Source: a virus
DNA: 64,000 nt
Strand: one strand, 5' to 3'
Virus record (IMG/VR): IMGVR_UViG_3300046321_000098
Coordinates: 1-64,000 of that record
Part shown: piece after piece, positions 2,796-62,048 of the stretch
How the letters are laid out: each line of letters opens with the position of its first letter
Numbering within the stretch: position 1 is the first letter of the stretch
Translations under genes and position numbers: made by a program
The notes under the pieces: generated by a model
Databases searched by the model: none
The model's input: only the letters and a program-made list of their open reading frames with translations
Told to the model about the DNA's origin: nothing

Positions 2796-2820
2796 TATTT
2801 GTAACATTTCGTGTTACAAT
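2792..2820 (+). promoter_or_regulatory. Sigma70-like promoter with embedded TGTAAC..GTTACA palindrome
   Basis: TTGATA-17nt-TACAAT; TGTAACA-N5-TGTTACA overlaps spacer and -10. Confidence 0.65.
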
Positions 2821-2828
2821 TGTAGATT

Positions 2829-2916
2829 GACAACGGCTAGGGTCATTCCCGAAAAGAAGATTAGTTACCTTCCTGCCTGTTGTTTTATTAGTAACTTCCA
2901 TTAACTAAGGAATACA
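2829..2916 (+). ncRNA. Structured RNA leader (three-way junction, anti-RBS loop), copy 1
   Basis: P1 2829-2837/2875-2884, GGG-TCATT-CCC, GAAG-loop-CTTC; similar to 14288-14376. Confidence 0.7.
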
Positions 2917-3510
2917 ATGACAAAGATACTTAAGAAATATGAGTTAAATAGGGAGTATGTAGTTCAGATATTAGAGTATGAACCACAAACTGGTGAATTT
3001 TTCTGGCTAGTACCCAAGGCAATGAGAGTTAACATTGGAGACTTAGCGGGTAACTATCGTAAGCAAAGTGGATATGTAACAATTAGTATTGATAATGTAG
3101 ACTACAAAGCGCATCACTTAGTCTGGTTGTACCATTATGGAGTTTTCCCTGTACTAGAGATTGACCACATAGACGGTAATCGAGCGAATAATAGGGTGGA
3201 TAATCTAAGAGAGGTCACATCCTCTACCAACGCAATGAATCGTAAAATGAGGGAAGATTGTTCATCAGGGGTCACTGGGGTAAGCCTGAGAAGAGGAAAA
3301 GGGAGAAACGGGAATCCATATCACGCATGGGTGGCGTTCTGGTGTGATTCAGACGGTAAACAGCGGTTTAAGAATTTTGCTGTAATCAAATACGGGTTTG
3401 ATACCGCCAAGCAAATGGCAATATCCTACAGAGAAGCACGTATACGTGAACTAAACACAGCAGGCGCTGATTACACAGAAAGACATGGAAAGCAATGTTC
3501 ACAGCATTAA
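2917..3510 (+). CDS. HNH homing endonuclease with AP2-like C-terminal domain
   Basis: YKAHHLVW...IDHIDGNRANNRVDNLR; SSGVTGVS. Confidence 0.92.
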   Translation: MTKILKKYELNREYVVQILEYEPQTGEFFWLVPKAMRVNIGDLAGNYRKQSGYVTISIDNVDYKAHHLVWLYHYGVFPVLEIDHIDGNRANNRVDNLREVTSSTNAMNRKMREDCSSGVTGVSLRRGKGRNGNPYHAWVAFWCDSDGKQRFKNFAVIKYGFDTAKQMAISYREARIRELNTAGADYTERHGKQCSQH

Positions 3511-4148
3511 ACACTCTCCCCTCATTAGAGGGGAAACCTAGAGACATTCGTGTACTCTTTGCAGACACAGCTAATACAGCCTTAAATTCAGGACGCTCGG
3601 AAGATGAAGCAATTTTTAAGGGTTTAGCTGTCGTAAAGCAAGCAGAGCAGTTCAGTATTAAAAAATACACCAGACCTGTTATCCCTTTGCACTTACAAGC
3701 AATACTAGACCTCAAGAATGCTCCTAAACCCTCTAAAGAAGAGCTACAAGAGCTTGAAAAAGCAAATGAACCTGTAAGTAGCTTACAAGCTGGAAAAGAG
3801 ATTGTTAGTGCTGAATTTGACTATCAAGGACGTTTAACATTAAAGTTCAAGGATGGTAAGAAAATCATCAGCAATGTTGCCCCTGTTACAGCGGTGCAGA
3901 ACACAGTTGTTGTTACAGCCTCAGGTGGCACGGGAACAATCAGTACTGAAACAGAGGGACTTGATGAGCTTACCTACAGCGGAGAGGATTTACAAAGAGT
4001 GGACTACGCAGATGGTACATATAAGCTCTTGTATTGGACGAATGGCGTCTTGGAGTATGTAGACCACTTCCAAACAGACCAAACAGTTCGTAAGACTCTT
4101 AACTACACACTTGGGGTATTGACCTCGGTTTTAACAGAAATATTATAA
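3495..4148 (+). CDS. Probable head-associated protein, ChaB-like N-terminus plus beta-rich C-terminal extension
   Basis: LPSL...LFADTANTAL...EDEAIFKGLAVVK resembles the ChaB helical motif; position after portal. Confidence 0.5.
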   Translation: MFTALNTLPSLEGKPRDIRVLFADTANTALNSGRSEDEAIFKGLAVVKQAEQFSIKKYTRPVIPLHLQAILDLKNAPKPSKEELQELEKANEPVSSLQAGKEIVSAEFDYQGRLTLKFKDGKKIISNVAPVTAVQNTVVVTASGGTGTISTETEGLDELTYSGEDLQRVDYADGTYKLLYWTNGVLEYVDHFQTDQTVRKTLNYTLGVLTSVLTEIL

Positions 4149-4149
4149 A

Positions 4150-6744
4150 ATGACAGCATATACTCTAGCAGCTAACGCAAATTTGAGACAGGTGGGTACT
4201 GCAGGTGTATGGGGTGTGGTAACTGCGAGAACTGGCGGTGATACAGTAGATAGTAATGGATTCAATTTAACAATAGACCAAGACACAAGGTACGGTTTTA
4301 GTGGTACAACTTCTACAAGTTTTGGCTCTATAACCATTAACGCAAACAAAGGTGGTCAATTAAATATTGATGCTAGGTTTGTTCGTATGATACCGTTTAC
4401 AGGTGGCTCTGGGACAATTACTGCAGGTACGACAATTACTTGCGGCTCAGGTACTGGGGCAGTCATTGGGTTATATTCCTCATTAACAACTGCTCCAGTG
4501 TTAACAGGAGTGGCATCAGGTTGGATTAAAGTAACCGCTTGGAACGGTATATCTTTTCCTACCAGTGGTACATTTACTCAGGCAGGTTATACATTCACAA
4601 TCTCAGGTGCAAGCATTGTAGGGTTTATTGAGGTGGTGGGAGATGAAGCTGGGACGATTGTAGCAAATCGATTAGGTTCAGTGAACATCACAGGGGAGTG
4701 GTTTGAGGTTGGCACAACATCAGGCTCCTCTGCTACGACTTACCAGCTTCCCACCAATGGTGCTATTCAATACTACCCATCATTATGGGTGGAGACAGGT
4801 GTAGGTACAGGTGTATATGAATCTTATCCGAACTCTGGCTCTTTGGTTGCAGCAAGTTCTACACCAACAGACGCAGTACGTGGTAAGTTCTGCTGGACAA
4901 CTACAGCAGGGGTGCTACGATTCGGCTCAGACGGAACAAACACTGTAGGTTATCTCCCACCAGCAGGGTTAAAAATCCGCTTACCAAATATCCTTTTAAA
5001 CAATTGCACCACGGCAGCAAGGACTGCAAATGTCTTACCAAACGCTACCTTAGCAACAAGGTACGATTTTACCTGTACTGGCGGTGGCGTTGTAAACATC
5101 AACAAAGCTAACTGTAACTGGTATCCAAGTTTTAACCAAGCATTTTCTGTAAATCTTAGCTACACAGGCATCGCAGAGCAACTACTTGTTTCTGAGATTG
5201 CTCAACCTTGCATTTGGGATAATGTTGCTGTGGGACAATCCGCAGCACAGGCTCAAATTGCTTTATCCATGTCCTTGTGCTTTGCAGGTGGAACAATTAG
5301 TAATTGTAATTTTACTCGTGCAACTCAGGCTACAGCTCTGGCTGTACGGACACTTACAGATATTTCAGATTTTGTGTTCACTGGGAATCGTTGGAGGTCT
5401 AGGGTTCTTCGTGCTGCTGCGAATACAATGATGGCAACTGATACTAGGGTTGCAGATTGTACGTTCACAAATGAAGTGACTATGGGGCAGATTAACCTTG
5501 TGACCTGTACTAATGTAACGTACACAAACCGCGTTTACTATGACCAACTTATAGCAACTACAGCAACCAATCCTTTAAGTGCTTGGGCTTTGTCTTCAAA
5601 CTGCGTAAATATTAAATTAGATGGTTTAACTTTTGGAGGGTTGACAAATGCTCACCCTTACACAGCTATCCTAAGTATTGCTGCTGCAGGGTGTACAGGT
5701 ATTAAATTAAGAAACATCGGCACAAGCCTTGTGCCGTTGAGTCTAGGTTCTGCAAATGCAACAGGTTTGATATACACCCTTGCCGCTGGTGCTGCTGCCT
5801 CTGATGTTAAAGTACAAAGGGTTTACTGCTCGAACACTAGAATAGGTGTTATGACAGGAGACAACTCCAGTACACGAGTGGTGGAAGAGAGTGTTTTTGG
5901 GGACTATGCTAATGCAGCTGTTGTTGCCGCTGTTTTAAACTACACTAGAAAAGGTAGAGGCGGTACGATAGCTGTTACAGCACAAACTGCTATTTACGGT
6001 ACACATTGGTACGACTGCTACACAAGCACAACAGCAGGACGTATTGGTTTAATGATGAATGAGGCAACATCATTAACCTCGTCTCAGATTACTTTGACAA
6101 ACGGTGCAGCGTTTACTTCAACAGGTGGTTTGTACATGCCAACAATAGGTATGACAGCCCTCTTTGAGATACCTTATTACCTAATTGGTCATACTGGGTT
6201 TCAGAACTCACCTGCTATTATGGCAGGGGGTACATCTACTAACTACACGTATGGTTTTCAGATAGATAAGAATGACGGTGCTGGTTGGAGTACATTAACT
6301 TCTGGTTCTACGACTACAACTCTTGCAACTGCTTTAAATGCTTTAACAGGTATTAATGCATTACTGGGGTTTAAGCTGAGAATCAAGATTACAACTACAG
6401 TTGCAAACACTACAGCTATAACCTCATTCTATTTACTCACCAGCTCAACTACAACAACTCAGGGTTATCAGTATCCATTAGAGACTAATACTTTCACCTT
6501 GACTGGGTTAGTATCAGGGTCAGATATTGTGATAAAGACAAGTGATACAAACACAGCATTGGTTAACGTAGACCAGAACCTGACAGACTCTTACGGCTAT
6601 GTTTATACTTTCACTCCGAGTACTTATGTGGATATAAAAGTGATAAAAGCTGGTTATATCCCTTATCAAGTCTATGACTACCTTCTCAGTAGTGCCGATG
6701 CTTCACTACCTATCGCTCAAGTTATAGACAGGAATTATGTATGA
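4150..6744 (+). CDS. Large Thr/Gly-rich beta-helix-like probable virion protein
   Basis: 864 aa, T/G/S/A-rich, central repeats like GTISNCNF/DCTFTN/TNVTYTN, ends DRNYV. Confidence 0.6.
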   Translation: MTAYTLAANANLRQVGTAGVWGVVTARTGGDTVDSNGFNLTIDQDTRYGFSGTTSTSFGSITINANKGGQLNIDARFVRMIPFTGGSGTITAGTTITCGSGTGAVIGLYSSLTTAPVLTGVASGWIKVTAWNGISFPTSGTFTQAGYTFTISGASIVGFIEVVGDEAGTIVANRLGSVNITGEWFEVGTTSGSSATTYQLPTNGAIQYYPSLWVETGVGTGVYESYPNSGSLVAASSTPTDAVRGKFCWTTTAGVLRFGSDGTNTVGYLPPAGLKIRLPNILLNNCTTAARTANVLPNATLATRYDFTCTGGGVVNINKANCNWYPSFNQAFSVNLSYTGIAEQLLVSEIAQPCIWDNVAVGQSAAQAQIALSMSLCFAGGTISNCNFTRATQATALAVRTLTDISDFVFTGNRWRSRVLRAAANTMMATDTRVADCTFTNEVTMGQINLVTCTNVTYTNRVYYDQLIATTATNPLSAWALSSNCVNIKLDGLTFGGLTNAHPYTAILSIAAAGCTGIKLRNIGTSLVPLSLGSANATGLIYTLAAGAAASDVKVQRVYCSNTRIGVMTGDNSSTRVVEESVFGDYANAAVVAAVLNYTRKGRGGTIAVTAQTAIYGTHWYDCYTSTTAGRIGLMMNEATSLTSSQITLTNGAAFTSTGGLYMPTIGMTALFEIPYYLIGHTGFQNSPAIMAGGTSTNYTYGFQIDKNDGAGWSTLTSGSTTTTLATALNALTGINALLGFKLRIKITTTVANTTAITSFYLLTSSTTTTQGYQYPLETNTFTLTGLVSGSDIVIKTSDTNTALVNVDQNLTDSYGYVYTFTPSTYVDIKVIKAGYIPYQVYDYLLSSADASLPIAQVIDRNYV

Positions 6745-14287: not shown

Positions 14288-14376
14288 AAACAGGCTAGGG
14301 GTTGCTCCCGAAACAGAAGAGTCATTACCTTCTCTTGCCTTGTTTTCTTTTTAGTAATGTTCTTTAATGGAGAAGT
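14288..14376 (+). ncRNA. Structured RNA leader (three-way junction, anti-RBS loop), copy 2
   Basis: GGCTAGGG..CCCGAAA.AGAAGA..TTACCTTC..TGCCT core shared with 2829-2916. Confidence 0.7.
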
Positions 14377-54382: not shown

Positions 54383-54606
54383 AAATAAAAACACTTTACA
54401 CCGCAATAAATCATGTGGTCGCATCAATCGGCATGAACGGTGCAATTGACAGCAGAAGCGAGTTAATAGAGGAGCTAAAAGACGCACTGTTTGCCATTGA
54501 CGGTGGCGTTTACAAGCCCGAATTATTCGATGAAACACAATCAAAATTCACCCAGCTACAAGCCGAAGTGGAAGCGCTACAGGAGATATTAAATTATGCC
54601 AAGTAA
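54379..54606 (+). CDS. 5' half of a gene interrupted by an HNH cassette
   Basis: Coiled coil LQAEVEAL breaks at 54580. Confidence 0.6.
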   Translation: MKIKTLYTAINHVVASIGMNGAIDSRSELIEELKDALFAIDGGVYKPELFDETQSKFTQLQAEVEALQEILNYAK

Positions 54607-55489
54607 AAAGGAGTTAGCTCTCACAAGAGAGCAAGTGTTAGGTATTCTTGAACTGAGGTTTCCTGAGTACGAGTTTTACTGGAAAGTAGCTATAGCTCGC
54701 AACGTCAAAGCTGGAAGCAAAGCTGGGCGATTGAACAAAGATGGATACACTGTAATCACTATAGATGGGAGCAAATTCAAGGCTCACCGTTTAGTCTGGT
54801 TTGTTACTTACGGGGAATTTCCTGATAATCAAATTGACCACCTTGACGGTAACCCCTCTAACAACAGGATTGAGAACCTTAGAGATGTTTCTAACAAAAC
54901 TAACGGGCAGAACCGCAAGAAGCGCAAACGACTTGATGAGGGTTTACCTACAGGAATCAAAGTCGGTAAGCGAAACAAGATTGGCGAAATTATTGGTTAT
55001 TACGCCTCTTGGTATGACATTAACGGCAAAAGGCAGGATATATATTTTGGGATTAAAAAGTGGTTAACTTTGGGGGCAGCGTTAGCTGCTTCTATAGCTA
55101 GACGCGAACTTGAAATGACTAATCTGCTTGACCTAGGCGCAGCATATACTGATAGACACGGGTGTGAAACTGCTAAGAACCACTGTAAGGATGCTGAGTG
55201 GCAACCTATTGAGACAGCGCCGAAGGACTACGTTACCGAGTTTGACGGATGGAATGGGGAGCGAGTTACAAATATCAGTTGGGAACATCCCGCTTATTCA
55301 CCCAAAGGACACTTTGCATGGTGCGTCAGTGAATATGTCGCCCATCACGGACACGACAATGTAGAAGTAAAAGGGTTAACCCACTGGATGCCTTTACCCA
55401 AGCCACCCGCTGCAATAGCTAAAGACACTCAGCTAACCGCACTTAGTGAAATGGTAAAACTTAGTCAGGAAATGGGGTTGTATAATTGA
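54596..55489 (+). CDS. HNH endonuclease fused to DUF551-like domain
   Basis: IDHLDGNPSNNRIENLR...YTDRHG then WQPIETAPKD...THWMPLPKPP. Confidence 0.85.
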   Translation: MPSKKELALTREQVLGILELRFPEYEFYWKVAIARNVKAGSKAGRLNKDGYTVITIDGSKFKAHRLVWFVTYGEFPDNQIDHLDGNPSNNRIENLRDVSNKTNGQNRKKRKRLDEGLPTGIKVGKRNKIGEIIGYYASWYDINGKRQDIYFGIKKWLTLGAALAASIARRELEMTNLLDLGAAYTDRHGCETAKNHCKDAEWQPIETAPKDYVTEFDGWNGERVTNISWEHPAYSPKGHFAWCVSEYVAHHGHDNVEVKGLTHWMPLPKPPAAIAKDTQLTALSEMVKLSQEMGLYN

Positions 55490-56427: not shown

Positions 56428-56619
56428 GAAGAGTTCCCAGAACCAGTATGATACTCAAGAATGGGACGAGGAAAACTTGAATTATCTTGAAGACATTTCA
56501 TCTGAATTTGGAAATCTTCCTCAGCTTCAGAGGTGGTCAATGAGTAGTGATGGAGAAGAGTAACAATTTGTAACAGTGCTTGCTTGGTTAAATATTTGAT
56601 GTAGAATTGGTTCATAGAC

Positions 56620-56742
56620 GCAACAGTGGTGGAATTGGTAGACACAGGTGACTAGGGGGATTTATCTTAGAGTAAGGCGCTCAGAGCTTACCTACCCGAA
56701 ATCGCAGAGCAGGTGAAGGTTCAAATCCTTCCTGTTGCACCA
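56620..56742 (+). ncRNA. tRNA-like RNA with enlarged (50-nt) anticodon loop region
   Basis: Acceptor GCAACAG/CTGTTGC-A-CCA, Leu-type D arm GTGGAATTGGTAGACAC, T arm GAAGG-TTCAAAT-CCTTC. Confidence 0.8.
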
Positions 56743-56768: not shown

Positions 56769-57035
56769 ATGTTAACAATTCACAAATATGATTTATATAG
56801 ACACGTAGGACGTGTTGCAATGCCTGTTGGTGCTACGGTTCTCTGTATTCAATATTAAGACAACAAACCTTCTCTGTGGGCTAAAGTAGACACGGATAAA
56901 CCTCTAAGTCCCCGCCAGTTTGTCCGATACGGTACAGGTTGGGAAATTGAAAATGATGATTACTACGCCGATGTCTATATTTCTACAGTGCAAGACAAAG
57001 ATGGACTTGTGTGGCACTGGTTTGAGGTTGTTTAA
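56769..57035 (+). pseudogene. Conserved small phage protein with internal TAA
   Basis: IHKY...MPVGA.VL.IQY*D...LWA.VD...GTG...LVWH.FE; AAGGA RBS. Confidence 0.65.
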
Positions 57036-61973: not shown

Positions 61974-62048
61974 ACGCCTATAGCTCAATGGACAGAGCCT
62001 CAACCTTCTAAGTTGATTATCCAAGTTCGATTCTTGGTAGGTGTACCA
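61974..62048 (+). tRNA. tRNA-Arg(TCT)
   Basis: Full cloverleaf; TCAAC-CT-TCT-AA-GTTGA; encoded CCA. Confidence 0.93.

What the first reader, a model, noticed from the sequence alone, without database searches (positions are those of the whole stretch)
56620..56742. tRNA-like RNA with a 43-nt structured insertion in the anticodon loop
Seen: perfect acceptor and T arms, Leu-type D arm, A73 and encoded CCA, with a promoter-like TAGAAT upstream. The anticodon stem GGTGA/TCGCA encloses 50 nt. The extra part (56655-56697) folds on itself (GGG/CCC; TAG-A-GTAAG/CTTAC-CTA). Removing it leaves a canonical 7-nt loop CTAGAAA. It is too short for a group I or II intron. Known: bacterial LeuRS largely ignores the anticodon, and host anticodon nucleases target tRNAs in defence. 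Inference: a protein-spliced tRNA intron, or a non-decoding tRNA mimic or decoy.
Basis: partly seen in the sequence, partly recalled or inferred. Interest (0 to 1): 0.7.

Follow-up and report, generated by a model that had tools for sequence, protein, structure and literature searches.

The report
Phage tRNA look-alike, anticodon arm replaced
A freshwater phage carries a gene shaped like a leucine tRNA whose anticodon loop is replaced by a folded 50-base piece, so it probably does not read codons; the base of that piece is a small hairpin the phage also uses between its late genes, so it looks like a working RNA of unknown role rather than a broken tRNA.

Summary
Window 56620-56742 (+) has a 7/7 acceptor stem, a Leu-type D arm, a 5/5 T arm, A73 and encoded CCA. 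About 50 nt sit where a 7-nt anticodon loop belongs.

- **Detection:** default ARAGORN and Rfam miss it. ARAGORN with introns allowed finds it at exactly these ends, against 0 hits in 30 shuffled genomes.
- **The fold is not settled:**
- **Against an intron:** there is no bulge-helix-bulge. The complete 82-kb phage has no RtcB, RNA ligase or splicing endonuclease. Removing the insert gives an anticodon (AGA or AGG) that does not fit the Leu-type body.
- **For a functional module:** the insert's base, (N)UAG-GGG...CCC-GAA(N), recurs in three unrelated phage tRNA look-alikes (L093, L003, L143). Only 1 of these 4 elements would regain a 7-nt loop. The same hairpin opens two conserved intergenic elements of this phage and of its nearest relative found.
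- **Accessory:** that relative lacks the tRNA look-alike itself.

Best reading (0.45): a non-decoding, tRNA-shaped RNA that displays a recognition hairpin. Rivals: spliced mini-intron (0.2) and decaying accessory tRNA (0.2).

Nothing shows expression. This scan has noted phage tRNA-Leu inserts on other DNA before, and Devoto 2019 reported 'enigmatic' phage tRNA introns.

The parts
56620..56742 (+). whole tRNA-shaped gene, 123 nt
   Evidence: ARAGORN -i gene at exactly these ends; parsed
56620..56626 (+). acceptor stem, 5' strand (pairs with 56732-56738, 7 of 7)
56629..56645 (+). Leu-type D arm: 3-bp stem GTG/CAC and 11-nt loop with GG
56647..56651 (+). closing helix 5' strand GGTGA.
56652..56658 (+). 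5' half of the conserved module: C-UAG then GGG
   Evidence: shared with L093, L003 and L143 and with the intergenic hairpins at 2838 and 14296
56659..56694 (+). variable 36-nt cap of the module. It has two competing hairpins: TAG-A-GTAAG/CTTAC-CTA with a 10-nt loop, or TCT..GAGT/GCTC.AGA with a 5-nt loop
   Evidence: the cap is 3, 8 and 33 nt in L003, L143 and L093
56695..56701 (+). 3' half of the conserved module: CCC then GAA-A
   Evidence: Rfam's tRNA model uses the equivalent stem in L093
56707..56714 (+). 8-nt variable region ending in U (possible partner of A15)
56715..56731 (+). T arm GAAGG-TTCAAAT-CCTTC
56732..56742 (+). acceptor 3' strand, A73, encoded CCA
56567..56607 (+). upstream bipartite motif TTTGTAACA ... 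TGTAGAAT (promoter-like)
   Evidence: this pair occurs only here and at 2799-2826 in the genome; also at the syntenic site of L180; not listed by the generic scan
2832..2905 (+). intergenic element E1 (portal to HNH-AP2 gene). It opens with the same C-UAG-GGG/CCC-GAA-A hairpin and is a paralogue of the tRNA-like locus
   Evidence: hairpin identical in relative G001
14290..14365 (+). intergenic element E2 (tail terminator gene to a small ORF), same hairpin
   Evidence: hairpin identical in relative G001

Best explanation
It is a non-decoding, tRNA-shaped small RNA.

**Shown:** it keeps every part that the tRNA maturation machinery and the elbow-recognising factors read. These are the acceptor stem, A73, encoded CCA, the Leu-type D arm and the T arm. 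The anticodon loop is replaced by an irregular arm of about 60 nt. The base of that arm is a conserved module: a closing helix, then (N)UAG, then a GGG/CCC helix, then GAA(N). The distal cap of the module varies freely.

**Inferred:**
- It is transcribed from the conserved TTTGTAACA...TGTAGAAT motif about 12 nt upstream, or as part of the + strand operon.
- RNase P cuts it free at 56620, and it ends at its own CCA.
- It folds into the L shape and accumulates as a stable RNA that cannot pair with a codon.
- It acts through the module. The same hairpin opens two conserved late-gene intergenic RNAs of this phage. The tRNA-shaped RNA would therefore offer a stable extra copy of that hairpin to whatever protein or RNA reads it, as a competitor, sponge or carrier.
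- With A73 and an intact Leu-type elbow it may also be charged by LeuRS.

The partner and the direction of the effect are unknown.
For: - **Intact tRNA shell:** 7/7 acceptor, 3/3 D stem, 5/5 T stem, canonical T loop, A73 and CCA. ARAGORN -i finds it, with 0 hits in 30 shuffled genomes.
- **The module is shared:** 2 of 72 other unique long Leu-type phage elements (L093, L003) carry TAGGGG...CCCGAA. The expected number is 0.0076, and 0 of 20,000 shuffle sets had two or more. A fourth element, L143, came from a motif scan.
- **The closing helix covaries:** all four have one, with different sequences: GGTGA/TCGCA, AGCGG/CCGCT, GGCGC/GTGCC and, in L003, CTAGC/GCTGG with CGTGA/TCACG just inside it by eye. 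Cap lengths are 36, 33, 8 and 3 nt. Rfam's tRNA model aligns L093 with that stem and a 53-nt loop insertion (39.9 bits).
- **Removing the module is not a general repair:** taking out GGG...CCC plus one base leaves loops of 7, 15, 9 and about 14 nt, so only 1 of 4 is canonical (from; for L003 counted by eye on its inner helix CGTGA/TCACG, not on the outer helix the script chose).
- **The hairpin recurs in this genome:** TAGGG-N-CCCGAA occurs 4 times against 0.76 in shuffles. Two of these open intergenic elements at 2838 and 14296 on the coding strand.
- **The intergenic hairpins are conserved:** both are letter-identical in the relative G001. In a four-sequence alignment of the intergenic elements, 3 of 9 predicted pairs keep pairing through changes on both sides.
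- **Paralogy:** the E1 region aligns to the tRNA-like locus with score 51.6 against 25.7 +/- 4.9 in shuffles (0 of 1000 reach it). E2 scores 40.2 against 26.4 +/- 4.5 (5 of 1000).
- **Shared upstream motif:**
- **No splicing enzymes** in the complete genome.
- **The wider class looks selected:** A73 is present in 53 of the 73.
Against: - No expression data of any kind.
- The motif family has only four independent members, and their layouts differ. In L003 the module sits on a side branch. L093 has 12 nt on the 3' side of the internal loop.
- Ours has the weakest closing helix (4 of 5 pairs), and energy slightly prefers ARAGORN's fold (-30.1 against -28.6 to -29.1 kcal/mol).
- The whole RNA folds no better than shuffles.
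- The element is absent from the closest relative found, both at the syntenic site and anywhere in its 87 kb at 93% completeness.
- The gene next to it carries an in-frame TAA, so the cassette could be decaying.
- The four members share no neighbouring protein family, so no partner is indicated.
- The discriminator is A in only 2 of the 4, which weakens a common LeuRS-dependent role.
Confidence: 0.45

Rival explanations
1. It is a decoding tRNA with a mini-intron. The insert is cut out, for instance by RNase P and a 3' tRNA-trimming enzyme acting on the GGG.../...CCC-G hairpin as on a mini-tRNA. A host ligase then joins the halves. The product has loop CUAGAAA, or CUAGGGC in ARAGORN's fold with the intron at the canonical 37/38 site.
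For: - Removing 56655-56697 leaves exactly 7 nt.
- ARAGORN finds an intron solution even with the intron fixed at 37/38.
- Other long Leu-type phage genes in the same scan do restore a sensible CTTAAAA loop (Leu-UAA) when their insert is removed. Some of these inserts end in ACCA like a mini-tRNA (L066 and the L094 group, L009/L035/L099, junctions read by eye).
- 'Enigmatic' introns in phage tRNAs are in print (Devoto 2019; preprint passages read).
- Earlier notes of this scan propose the RNase P/Z route. These are leads only.
Against: - The restored anticodon (AGA or AGG) reads Ser or Pro codons on a Leu-type, A73 body.
- The insert has no T-loop-like loop and no ACCA.
- Only 1 of the 4 elements sharing the insert ends regains a 7-nt loop.
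- The same ends occur as a plain hairpin in intergenic RNAs where nothing needs splicing.
- No RNA ligase, RtcB or splicing endonuclease in the complete phage genome.
- No bulge-helix-bulge.
- No uninterrupted homologue was found.
Confidence: 0.2
2. It is a decaying accessory tRNA gene. A Leu-type tRNA picked up by this lineage suffered an insertion in its anticodon loop and now has no function. It sits in a dispensable cassette that is being lost.
For: - It is absent, together with the neighbouring DUF7352 gene, from the syntenic site of the closest relative found, and from the rest of that genome.
- The DUF7352 gene next to it has an in-frame TAA at codon 30. Another population reads CAA there.
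- It is not recognised by default tRNA finders.
- Its fold is no better than shuffles.
- The outer pair of the closing helix is mismatched.
Against: - All three remaining arms are perfect and CCA is encoded. Decay would not spare them while placing 43 nt exactly in the loop.
- The ends of the insert are a motif shared far beyond chance with three unrelated phages and with conserved intergenic RNAs of this phage.
- The contigs laid from other freshwater runs list no difference inside the element, while they list differences in both flanks. Cover was partial, and one unlisted difference in the X8 contig could lie at its end.
Confidence: 0.2
3. It is a cis-acting 5' leader or punctuation signal. 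The tRNA shape is there only so that RNase P cuts the transcript at a fixed place, giving the downstream DUF7352 mRNA a defined 5' end. The released RNA is a by-product.
For: - It sits about 12 nt after the conserved promoter-like motif and 26 nt before the next start codon.
- That is the position the paralogous E1 and E2 hairpins hold in their own intergenic regions.
Against: A punctuation signal needs no conserved module and no Leu-type elbow, A73 or encoded CCA. The other three motif-bearing members sit in quite different gene contexts.
Confidence: 0.1

Closest known systems
'Enigmatic' introns in tRNA genes of Lak megaphages (Devoto et al. 2019, Nat Microbiol, PMC6784885; I read passages of the preprint 10.1101/356790; Table S6 with the sequences is a supplement that I could not open)
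   Same: Phage tRNA-shaped genes longer than normal. Bacterial tRNA finders miss or cannot type them. They carry a short insertion in the anticodon region that is neither a group I nor a group II intron, and the mechanism is unknown.
   Different: The Lak cases were reported for Phe, Gly, Thr and Tyr tRNAs of phages of about 540 kb. There, alignment with uninterrupted copies defines the excision points. Here the body is Leu-type, no uninterrupted copy was found, the restored anticodon does not fit the body, and the insert's base is a motif that also occurs outside tRNA genes.
Phage tRNA-Leu genes with tRNA-shaped or hairpin mini-inserts
   Same: The same Leu-type D arm, the same overall length (112-141 nt), and phage origin. 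Both came up in the same pattern scan.
   Different: Those restore CTTAAAA (Leu-UAA), keep a normal Leu variable arm and CCA, and often lie in tRNA arrays. Ours has an 8-nt variable region, stands alone, and restores no Leu anticodon.
T4 RNAC and RNAD (species 1 and 2 RNAs; annotated in NC_000866 at 70908-71171)
   Same: Stable small phage RNAs of 119-139 nt beside tRNA genes. RNAC has a T-arm-like hairpin near its 3' end. Their roles are still called unknown in the passages I read in PMC3014915 and PMC9697503.
   Different: No sequence similarity: the best BLAST match is 8 nt. They have no Leu-type D arm and lie inside a tRNA cluster.
Group I intron of cyanobacterial and plastid tRNA-Leu(UAA) (Rfam RF00028)
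   Same: An insertion in the anticodon loop of a Leu-type tRNA.
   Different: Those introns are about 200-300 nt with a catalytic core. Here the insert is 29-43 nt and matches no Rfam intron or ribozyme family.
Engineered 'tRNA scaffold' RNAs and bacterial YrlA/Y RNAs (both recalled, neither tested)
   Same: A tRNA-like shell used for processing and stability, carrying a foreign functional arm in place of the anticodon arm.
   Different: The scaffold is a laboratory design. YrlA has its own Rfam family, which did not match here. This is a resemblance of principle only.

Membership tests
Canonical tRNA (Rfam RF00005) | 7-bp acceptor stem, discriminator, 3' CCA site | tested here: met
   7 of 7 pairs, A73, encoded CCA
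Canonical tRNA (Rfam RF00005) | D arm and T arm with conserved loop residues | tested here: met
   GTG/CAC with GG in an 11-nt loop; GAAGG-TTCAAAT-CCTTC; T arm matched locally by Rfam
Canonical tRNA (Rfam RF00005) | 5-bp anticodon stem closing a 7-nt loop | tested here: not met
Canonical tRNA (Rfam RF00005) | score at or above the gathering cut-off of 29 bits | tested here: not met
   No match at gathering. The best local match is 15.6 bits. No global match even on 161 nt with lax filters. By contrast L093 scores 39.9 and L143 scores 41.7 bits.
Archaeal/eukaryal protein-spliced tRNA intron | intron at position 37/38 | tested here: inconclusive
   ARAGORN -if gives such a solution, but only with the alternative stem GGTGA/TTACC. 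The two folds differ by 1-1.5 kcal/mol.
Archaeal/eukaryal protein-spliced tRNA intron | bulge-helix-bulge motif at the splice sites | tested here: not met
   None of the optimal or suboptimal folds has two 3-nt bulges 4 bp apart (read by eye)
Archaeal/eukaryal protein-spliced tRNA intron | splicing endonuclease and ligase available | tested here: not met
   PF01974, PF01139 and PF09414 are absent from the complete 82-kb genome, with the control genomes positive. The host is unknown, so its enzymes could not be checked.
Group I intron in tRNA-Leu | catalytic core matching RF00028 | tested here: not met
   No match.
Phage tRNA mini-introns (Devoto 2019; this scan's notes) | removal restores a 7-nt loop | tested here: met
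   CTAGAAA after removing 56655-56697
Phage tRNA mini-introns (Devoto 2019; this scan's notes) | the restored anticodon fits the identity of the body | tested here: not met
   AGA or AGG on a Leu-type, A73 body. That this body type means Leu is established knowledge, not tested here.
Phage tRNA mini-introns (Devoto 2019; this scan's notes) | the same rule holds in relatives carrying the same insert ends, or an uninterrupted copy exists | tested here: not met
   1 of 4 regains a 7-nt loop. No uninterrupted copy in four pattern scans.
tmRNA | tag reading frame and tRNA-Ala-like ends | tested here: not met
   ARAGORN -m finds none in the genome. The only Rfam tmRNA hit is 9.3 bits against a cut-off of 84.
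T4 RNAC/RNAD-like stable RNAs | sequence or structural homology to rnaC or rnaD | tested here: not met
   The best BLAST match is 8 nt

The most novel reading that the evidence does not exclude
Phages carry a large, unrecognised class of natural 'tRNA scaffold' RNAs. The Leu-type acceptor, elbow and A73 are kept, so the RNA is matured, stabilised and perhaps leucylated like a tRNA. The anticodon and variable region are swapped for interchangeable functional modules.

In this lineage the module is a recognition hairpin (UAG-GGG/CCC-GAA) that also heads conserved late-gene leader RNAs. The tRNA-shaped RNA would then be a trans-acting regulator or sponge for the factor that reads those leaders. 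The leaders themselves look like worn-down copies of the same tRNA-shaped gene.
Probability: 0.25. Interest if true: 0.8.

Novelty: new variant of a known kind. Interest (0 to 1): 0.58.

Why it matters
Over-long tRNA genes in phages have been reported once as 'enigmatic introns' and never explained. T4's tRNA-cluster RNAs C and D have had no known role for fifty years.

This element is a case where the intron reading can be argued against from sequence alone. It also ties a tRNA-shaped RNA to a motif the phage uses elsewhere. That gives a concrete experiment: find what binds the UAG-GGG/CCC-GAA hairpin.

If such RNAs are non-decoding tRNA mimics, they bear on three questions:
- how phages deal with tRNA-directed host defences;
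- how tRNA genes give rise to new regulatory RNAs;
- how tRNA counts in phage genomes should be read.

Tried and rejected
**Ideas tested and rejected**
- *Ochre suppressor.* The gene just downstream (DUF7352) has an in-frame TAA, and the insert contains UUUA. But that stretch lies in a bulge, not a 7-nt hairpin loop. The genome uses all three stops as terminators. Another population has CAA at that codon. Rejected.
- *Global stop-codon recoding.* ORF statistics do not need it.
- *Antisense role within the phage.* The central 67 nt has no complementary match of 11 nt or more elsewhere in the genome. It has four direct 11-12-mers, against 2.1 such hits (both strands together) expected from shuffles.
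- *Self-cleaving ribozyme or riboswitch in the insert.* No Rfam match at E up to 10.
- *Known motif for the module.* I compared the internal loop by eye, from memory, with the kink-turn, the sarcin-ricin/loop E motif and the GAAA-tetraloop receptor. None fits cleanly. A loose likeness to the receptor is only a recalled lead.
- *Shared neighbouring protein.* None among the four motif-bearing loci.

**Searches that found little or nothing**
- *Close relatives through neighbouring proteins.* Two single-protein scans found none. A profile scan found L180.
- *Isolated phages.* blastn found nothing. tblastn with a neighbouring protein gave only matches under 60% identity, and 16 of the 20 records are phages of Serratia, Erwinia, Escherichia, Enterobacter or Shigella of about 153-164 kb.
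- *Metagenome scan for the D arm plus CTAGGGG.* It gave 16 stretches. None is an insert-bearing look-alike. Two (L121, L131) are a normal-size tRNA.
- *Genome scan.* It gave 26 stretches. Only L174 is real, and it is the L093 prophage again.
- *MAFFT alignment of the four members.* It misaligned the centre, so I built no covariance model and ran no model search.
- *Short-word BLAST.* It did not pick up the E1/E2 likeness. A gap-tolerant local alignment did.
- *Sequencing runs.* No RNA holder was listed. The laid contigs left parts of the stretch uncovered in three of the four runs. Neither says anything about expression or absence.
- *Literature.* Searches turned up only Devoto 2019 for inserts in phage tRNAs. 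My statement that the module is not in print rests on those three searches and on Rfam.
Full report
**What is there.** The window is the first 64 kb of an 82,011-bp phage record with direct terminal repeats, rated complete. At 56620-56742 on the + strand the sequence reads as a tRNA in everything but its middle:
- Acceptor GCAACAG/CTGTTGC, 7 of 7 pairs.
- U8.
- A 3-bp D stem GTG/CAC with the 11-nt loop GAATTGGTAGA typical of class II, Leu-type tRNAs.
- T arm GAAGG-TTCAAAT-CCTTC.
- A73 and encoded CCA.

Between the D and T arms lie 69 nt instead of about 21. Default ARAGORN and Rfam do not call it: the window's only call is tRNA-Arg at 61974, and Rfam sees only the T arm at 15.6 bits.

**The fold is ambiguous.** There are two candidate folds.
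Inside it sit GGG/CCC and a hairpin.
- ARAGORN pairs GGTGA with TTACC (5 of 5). That gives loop CTAGGG|C, anticodon AGG, a 29-nt intron at the canonical 37/38 site and a 22-nt variable arm.

With the three tRNA arms fixed, the two folds score -28.6 to -29.1 and -30.1 kcal/mol. The free fold is no better than shuffles (z -0.49). Energy cannot decide, so I turned to comparison.

- 87 of the hits had at least 6 of 7 acceptor pairs. They collapse to 73 unique elements of 110 nt or more.
- The discriminator is A in 53 of the 73, and CCA is encoded in 14.
- Rfam's tRNA model scores many of them at 38-45 bits.
- Of the 117 loci, 54 hold at least one ordinary tRNA and 33 hold three or more.

Some are plainly tRNA-Leu(UAA) with an insert. 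Their loop reads CTT...AAAA, they keep a Leu variable arm and CCA, and some inserts end in ACCA like a mini-tRNA (L066, the L094 group, L009/L035/L099, junctions read by eye). In L075 and L114 the insert extends the anticodon helix with compensatory changes. Many others have no anticodon stem at all.

The only paper my three searches found on inserts in phage tRNAs is Devoto 2019, on 'enigmatic introns' in Lak megaphages (preprint passages read). Earlier notes of this scan describe tRNA-shaped mini-introns in phage tRNA-Leu on other DNA. I took the RNase P/Z idea from them as a lead and tested it against this element.

**The insert's base is a shared module.**
- Two of the 72 other unique elements, L093 and L003, carry TAGGGG ... 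CCCGAA as ours does. The expected number is 0.0076, and 0 of 20,000 shuffle sets had two or more.
- A motif scan added L143.
- D-arm-anchored scans found no further true member: 3 true of 6 stretches in IMG/VR and 1 true of 26 in 185,579 genomes. The genome hit is L174, an Allopusillimonas ginsengisoli prophage identical to L093.
- Rfam aligns L093 with that stem and a 53-nt loop insertion.

It also argues against an intron. Cutting out GGG...CCC plus one base leaves 7 nt only in ours, against 15, 9 and about 14 nt in the others (the L003 figure is counted by eye on its inner helix, not on the outer helix the script chose).

**No splicing apparatus, and no sensible product.**
- The genome has no RtcB, RNA-ligase or splicing-endonuclease domain, with positive controls.
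- There is no bulge-helix-bulge.
- No Rfam intron or ribozyme matches.
- The product would read Ser (AGA) or Pro (AGG) codons on a Leu-type body.

**The same hairpin elsewhere in the phage.** TAGGG-N-CCCGAA occurs four times in the genome against 0.76 in shuffles. Two copies, both with the fuller C-TAG-GGG...CCC-GAA-A, open intergenic elements on the coding strand:
- E1 at about 2832-2905, between the portal gene and an HNH-AP2 gene.
- E2 at about 14290-14365, after the tail-terminator gene.

Both hairpins are letter-identical in the relative G001. In the four-sequence alignment, 3 of 9 predicted pairs keep pairing through changes on both sides. By eye, a local second hairpin also changes its stem while keeping its loop.

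E1 with its upstream flank aligns to the tRNA-like locus at 51.6 against 25.7 +/- 4.9 (0 of 1000 shuffles reach it). E2 aligns at 40.2 against 26.4 +/- 4.5 (5 of 1000). The alignment runs through the upstream TTTGTAACA...TGTAGA motif, the module, a hairpin with the T stem's letters, and CTG..TGTTG.

That upstream pair occurs only at these two places in the genome. It also stands at the syntenic site of L180. L093's prophage also holds a second small copy of the hairpin.

**It is accessory.** A profile of the downstream neighbour's homologues found L180, in an 87-kb record that is 93% complete, with 64% protein identity. There the same promoter-like motif leads straight into the neighbour gene. 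Both the tRNA look-alike and the DUF7352 gene are missing. No copy lies elsewhere in that record, which has two ordinary tRNAs.

**Population data.** At least nine freshwater runs hold half or more of the sampled words. Contigs laid from four runs list differences upstream (56331, 56340, 56342) and downstream (56856, 56872, 56906, 56907, 57045...), but none inside the element. Cover of the element was partial, and one of the X8 contig's five differences is unlisted and could lie at its end. The change at 56856 turns the in-frame TAA of DUF7352 into CAA.

**Reading.**
- Best (0.45): a non-decoding tRNA-shaped RNA that is matured like a tRNA and displays a recognition hairpin the phage also uses in late-gene leaders. 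Its role as competitor, sponge or carrier is inferred, and its partner is unknown.
- Rivals: a spliced mini-intron (0.2), a decaying accessory tRNA (0.2) and a cis-acting processing signal (0.1).

Nothing here shows expression.

Noticed in passing
window 56769-57035 (TAA at 56856-56858): The DUF7352 gene just downstream matches its Pfam family over residues 1-87 (E 1.7e-18) but has an in-frame TAA at codon 30. A contig from run X8 reads CAA (Gln) there. It is a polymorphic nonsense codon, not recoding.
   Followed up: partly
window 2832-2905 and 14290-14365; L201 and L198 in relative G001: Two paralogous intergenic RNA elements (E1, E2) have an invariant 5' hairpin, GGC-UAG-GGG..CCC-GAAA. They also have a second hairpin whose stem changes while its loop is kept, a long-range helix with compensatory changes, and a U-rich tract. 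They are conserved in a phage whose one compared protein is 64% identical. They could be leaders or attenuators of late genes.
   Followed up: partly
window 2799-2826 and 56568-56605; L180 about 2890-2935: The bipartite motif TTTGTAACA ... TGTAGA(A/T) occurs only twice in the 82-kb genome. It also stands at the syntenic site of the relative. It may be a phage promoter that the generic sigma-70 scan does not list.
   Followed up: partly
L121 1698-1784 and L131 (metagenome contig of 968 kb): A normal-size class II tRNA with a Leu-type D arm, A73, CCA and the loop CTAGGGG. ARAGORN calls it tRNA-Pro(AGG). A Pro anticodon on a Leu-type body would mistranslate if it were charged with Leu.
   Followed up: no
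L143 3851-3943: ARAGORN reads this motif-bearing element as a tRNA with an 8-nt loop and a four-base anticodon (atag). Rfam scores it 41.7 bits as tRNA.
   Followed up: partly
L075 and L114: Two phage tRNA-Leu genes have 33-nt inserts that prolong the anticodon helix by 7 bp. The prolonged helix shows compensatory changes: TTAACAC/GTGTTAA against TTAACGG/CCGTTAA.
   Followed up: no
L066, L094, L026, L058, L061: tRNA-Leu(UAA) genes split after the first anticodon bases by inserts of about 50 nt. The inserts fold like an acceptor stem plus a T-like arm (loop GGCAGCA) and end in ACCA. This matches the 'tRNA-shaped mini-introns' in earlier notes of this scan.
   Followed up: no
window 54596-55489 and 2917-3510: Two HNH endonuclease genes. 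One has an AP2 domain, right after element E1. The other reads through into a DUF551 segment.
   Followed up: partly
L093 about 3300-5030: About 1.7 kb upstream of the Allopusillimonas prophage's tRNA look-alike has no convincing ORF and no Rfam match.
   Followed up: no
L135, L138, L139, L145, L147, L142: Phage contigs with tmRNA-like 3' ends (T arm followed by ...CTCCACGA). They contain TAGGGG...CCCGAAAGGG upstream. They are probably viral tmRNA-like genes and unrelated to this finding.
   Followed up: no
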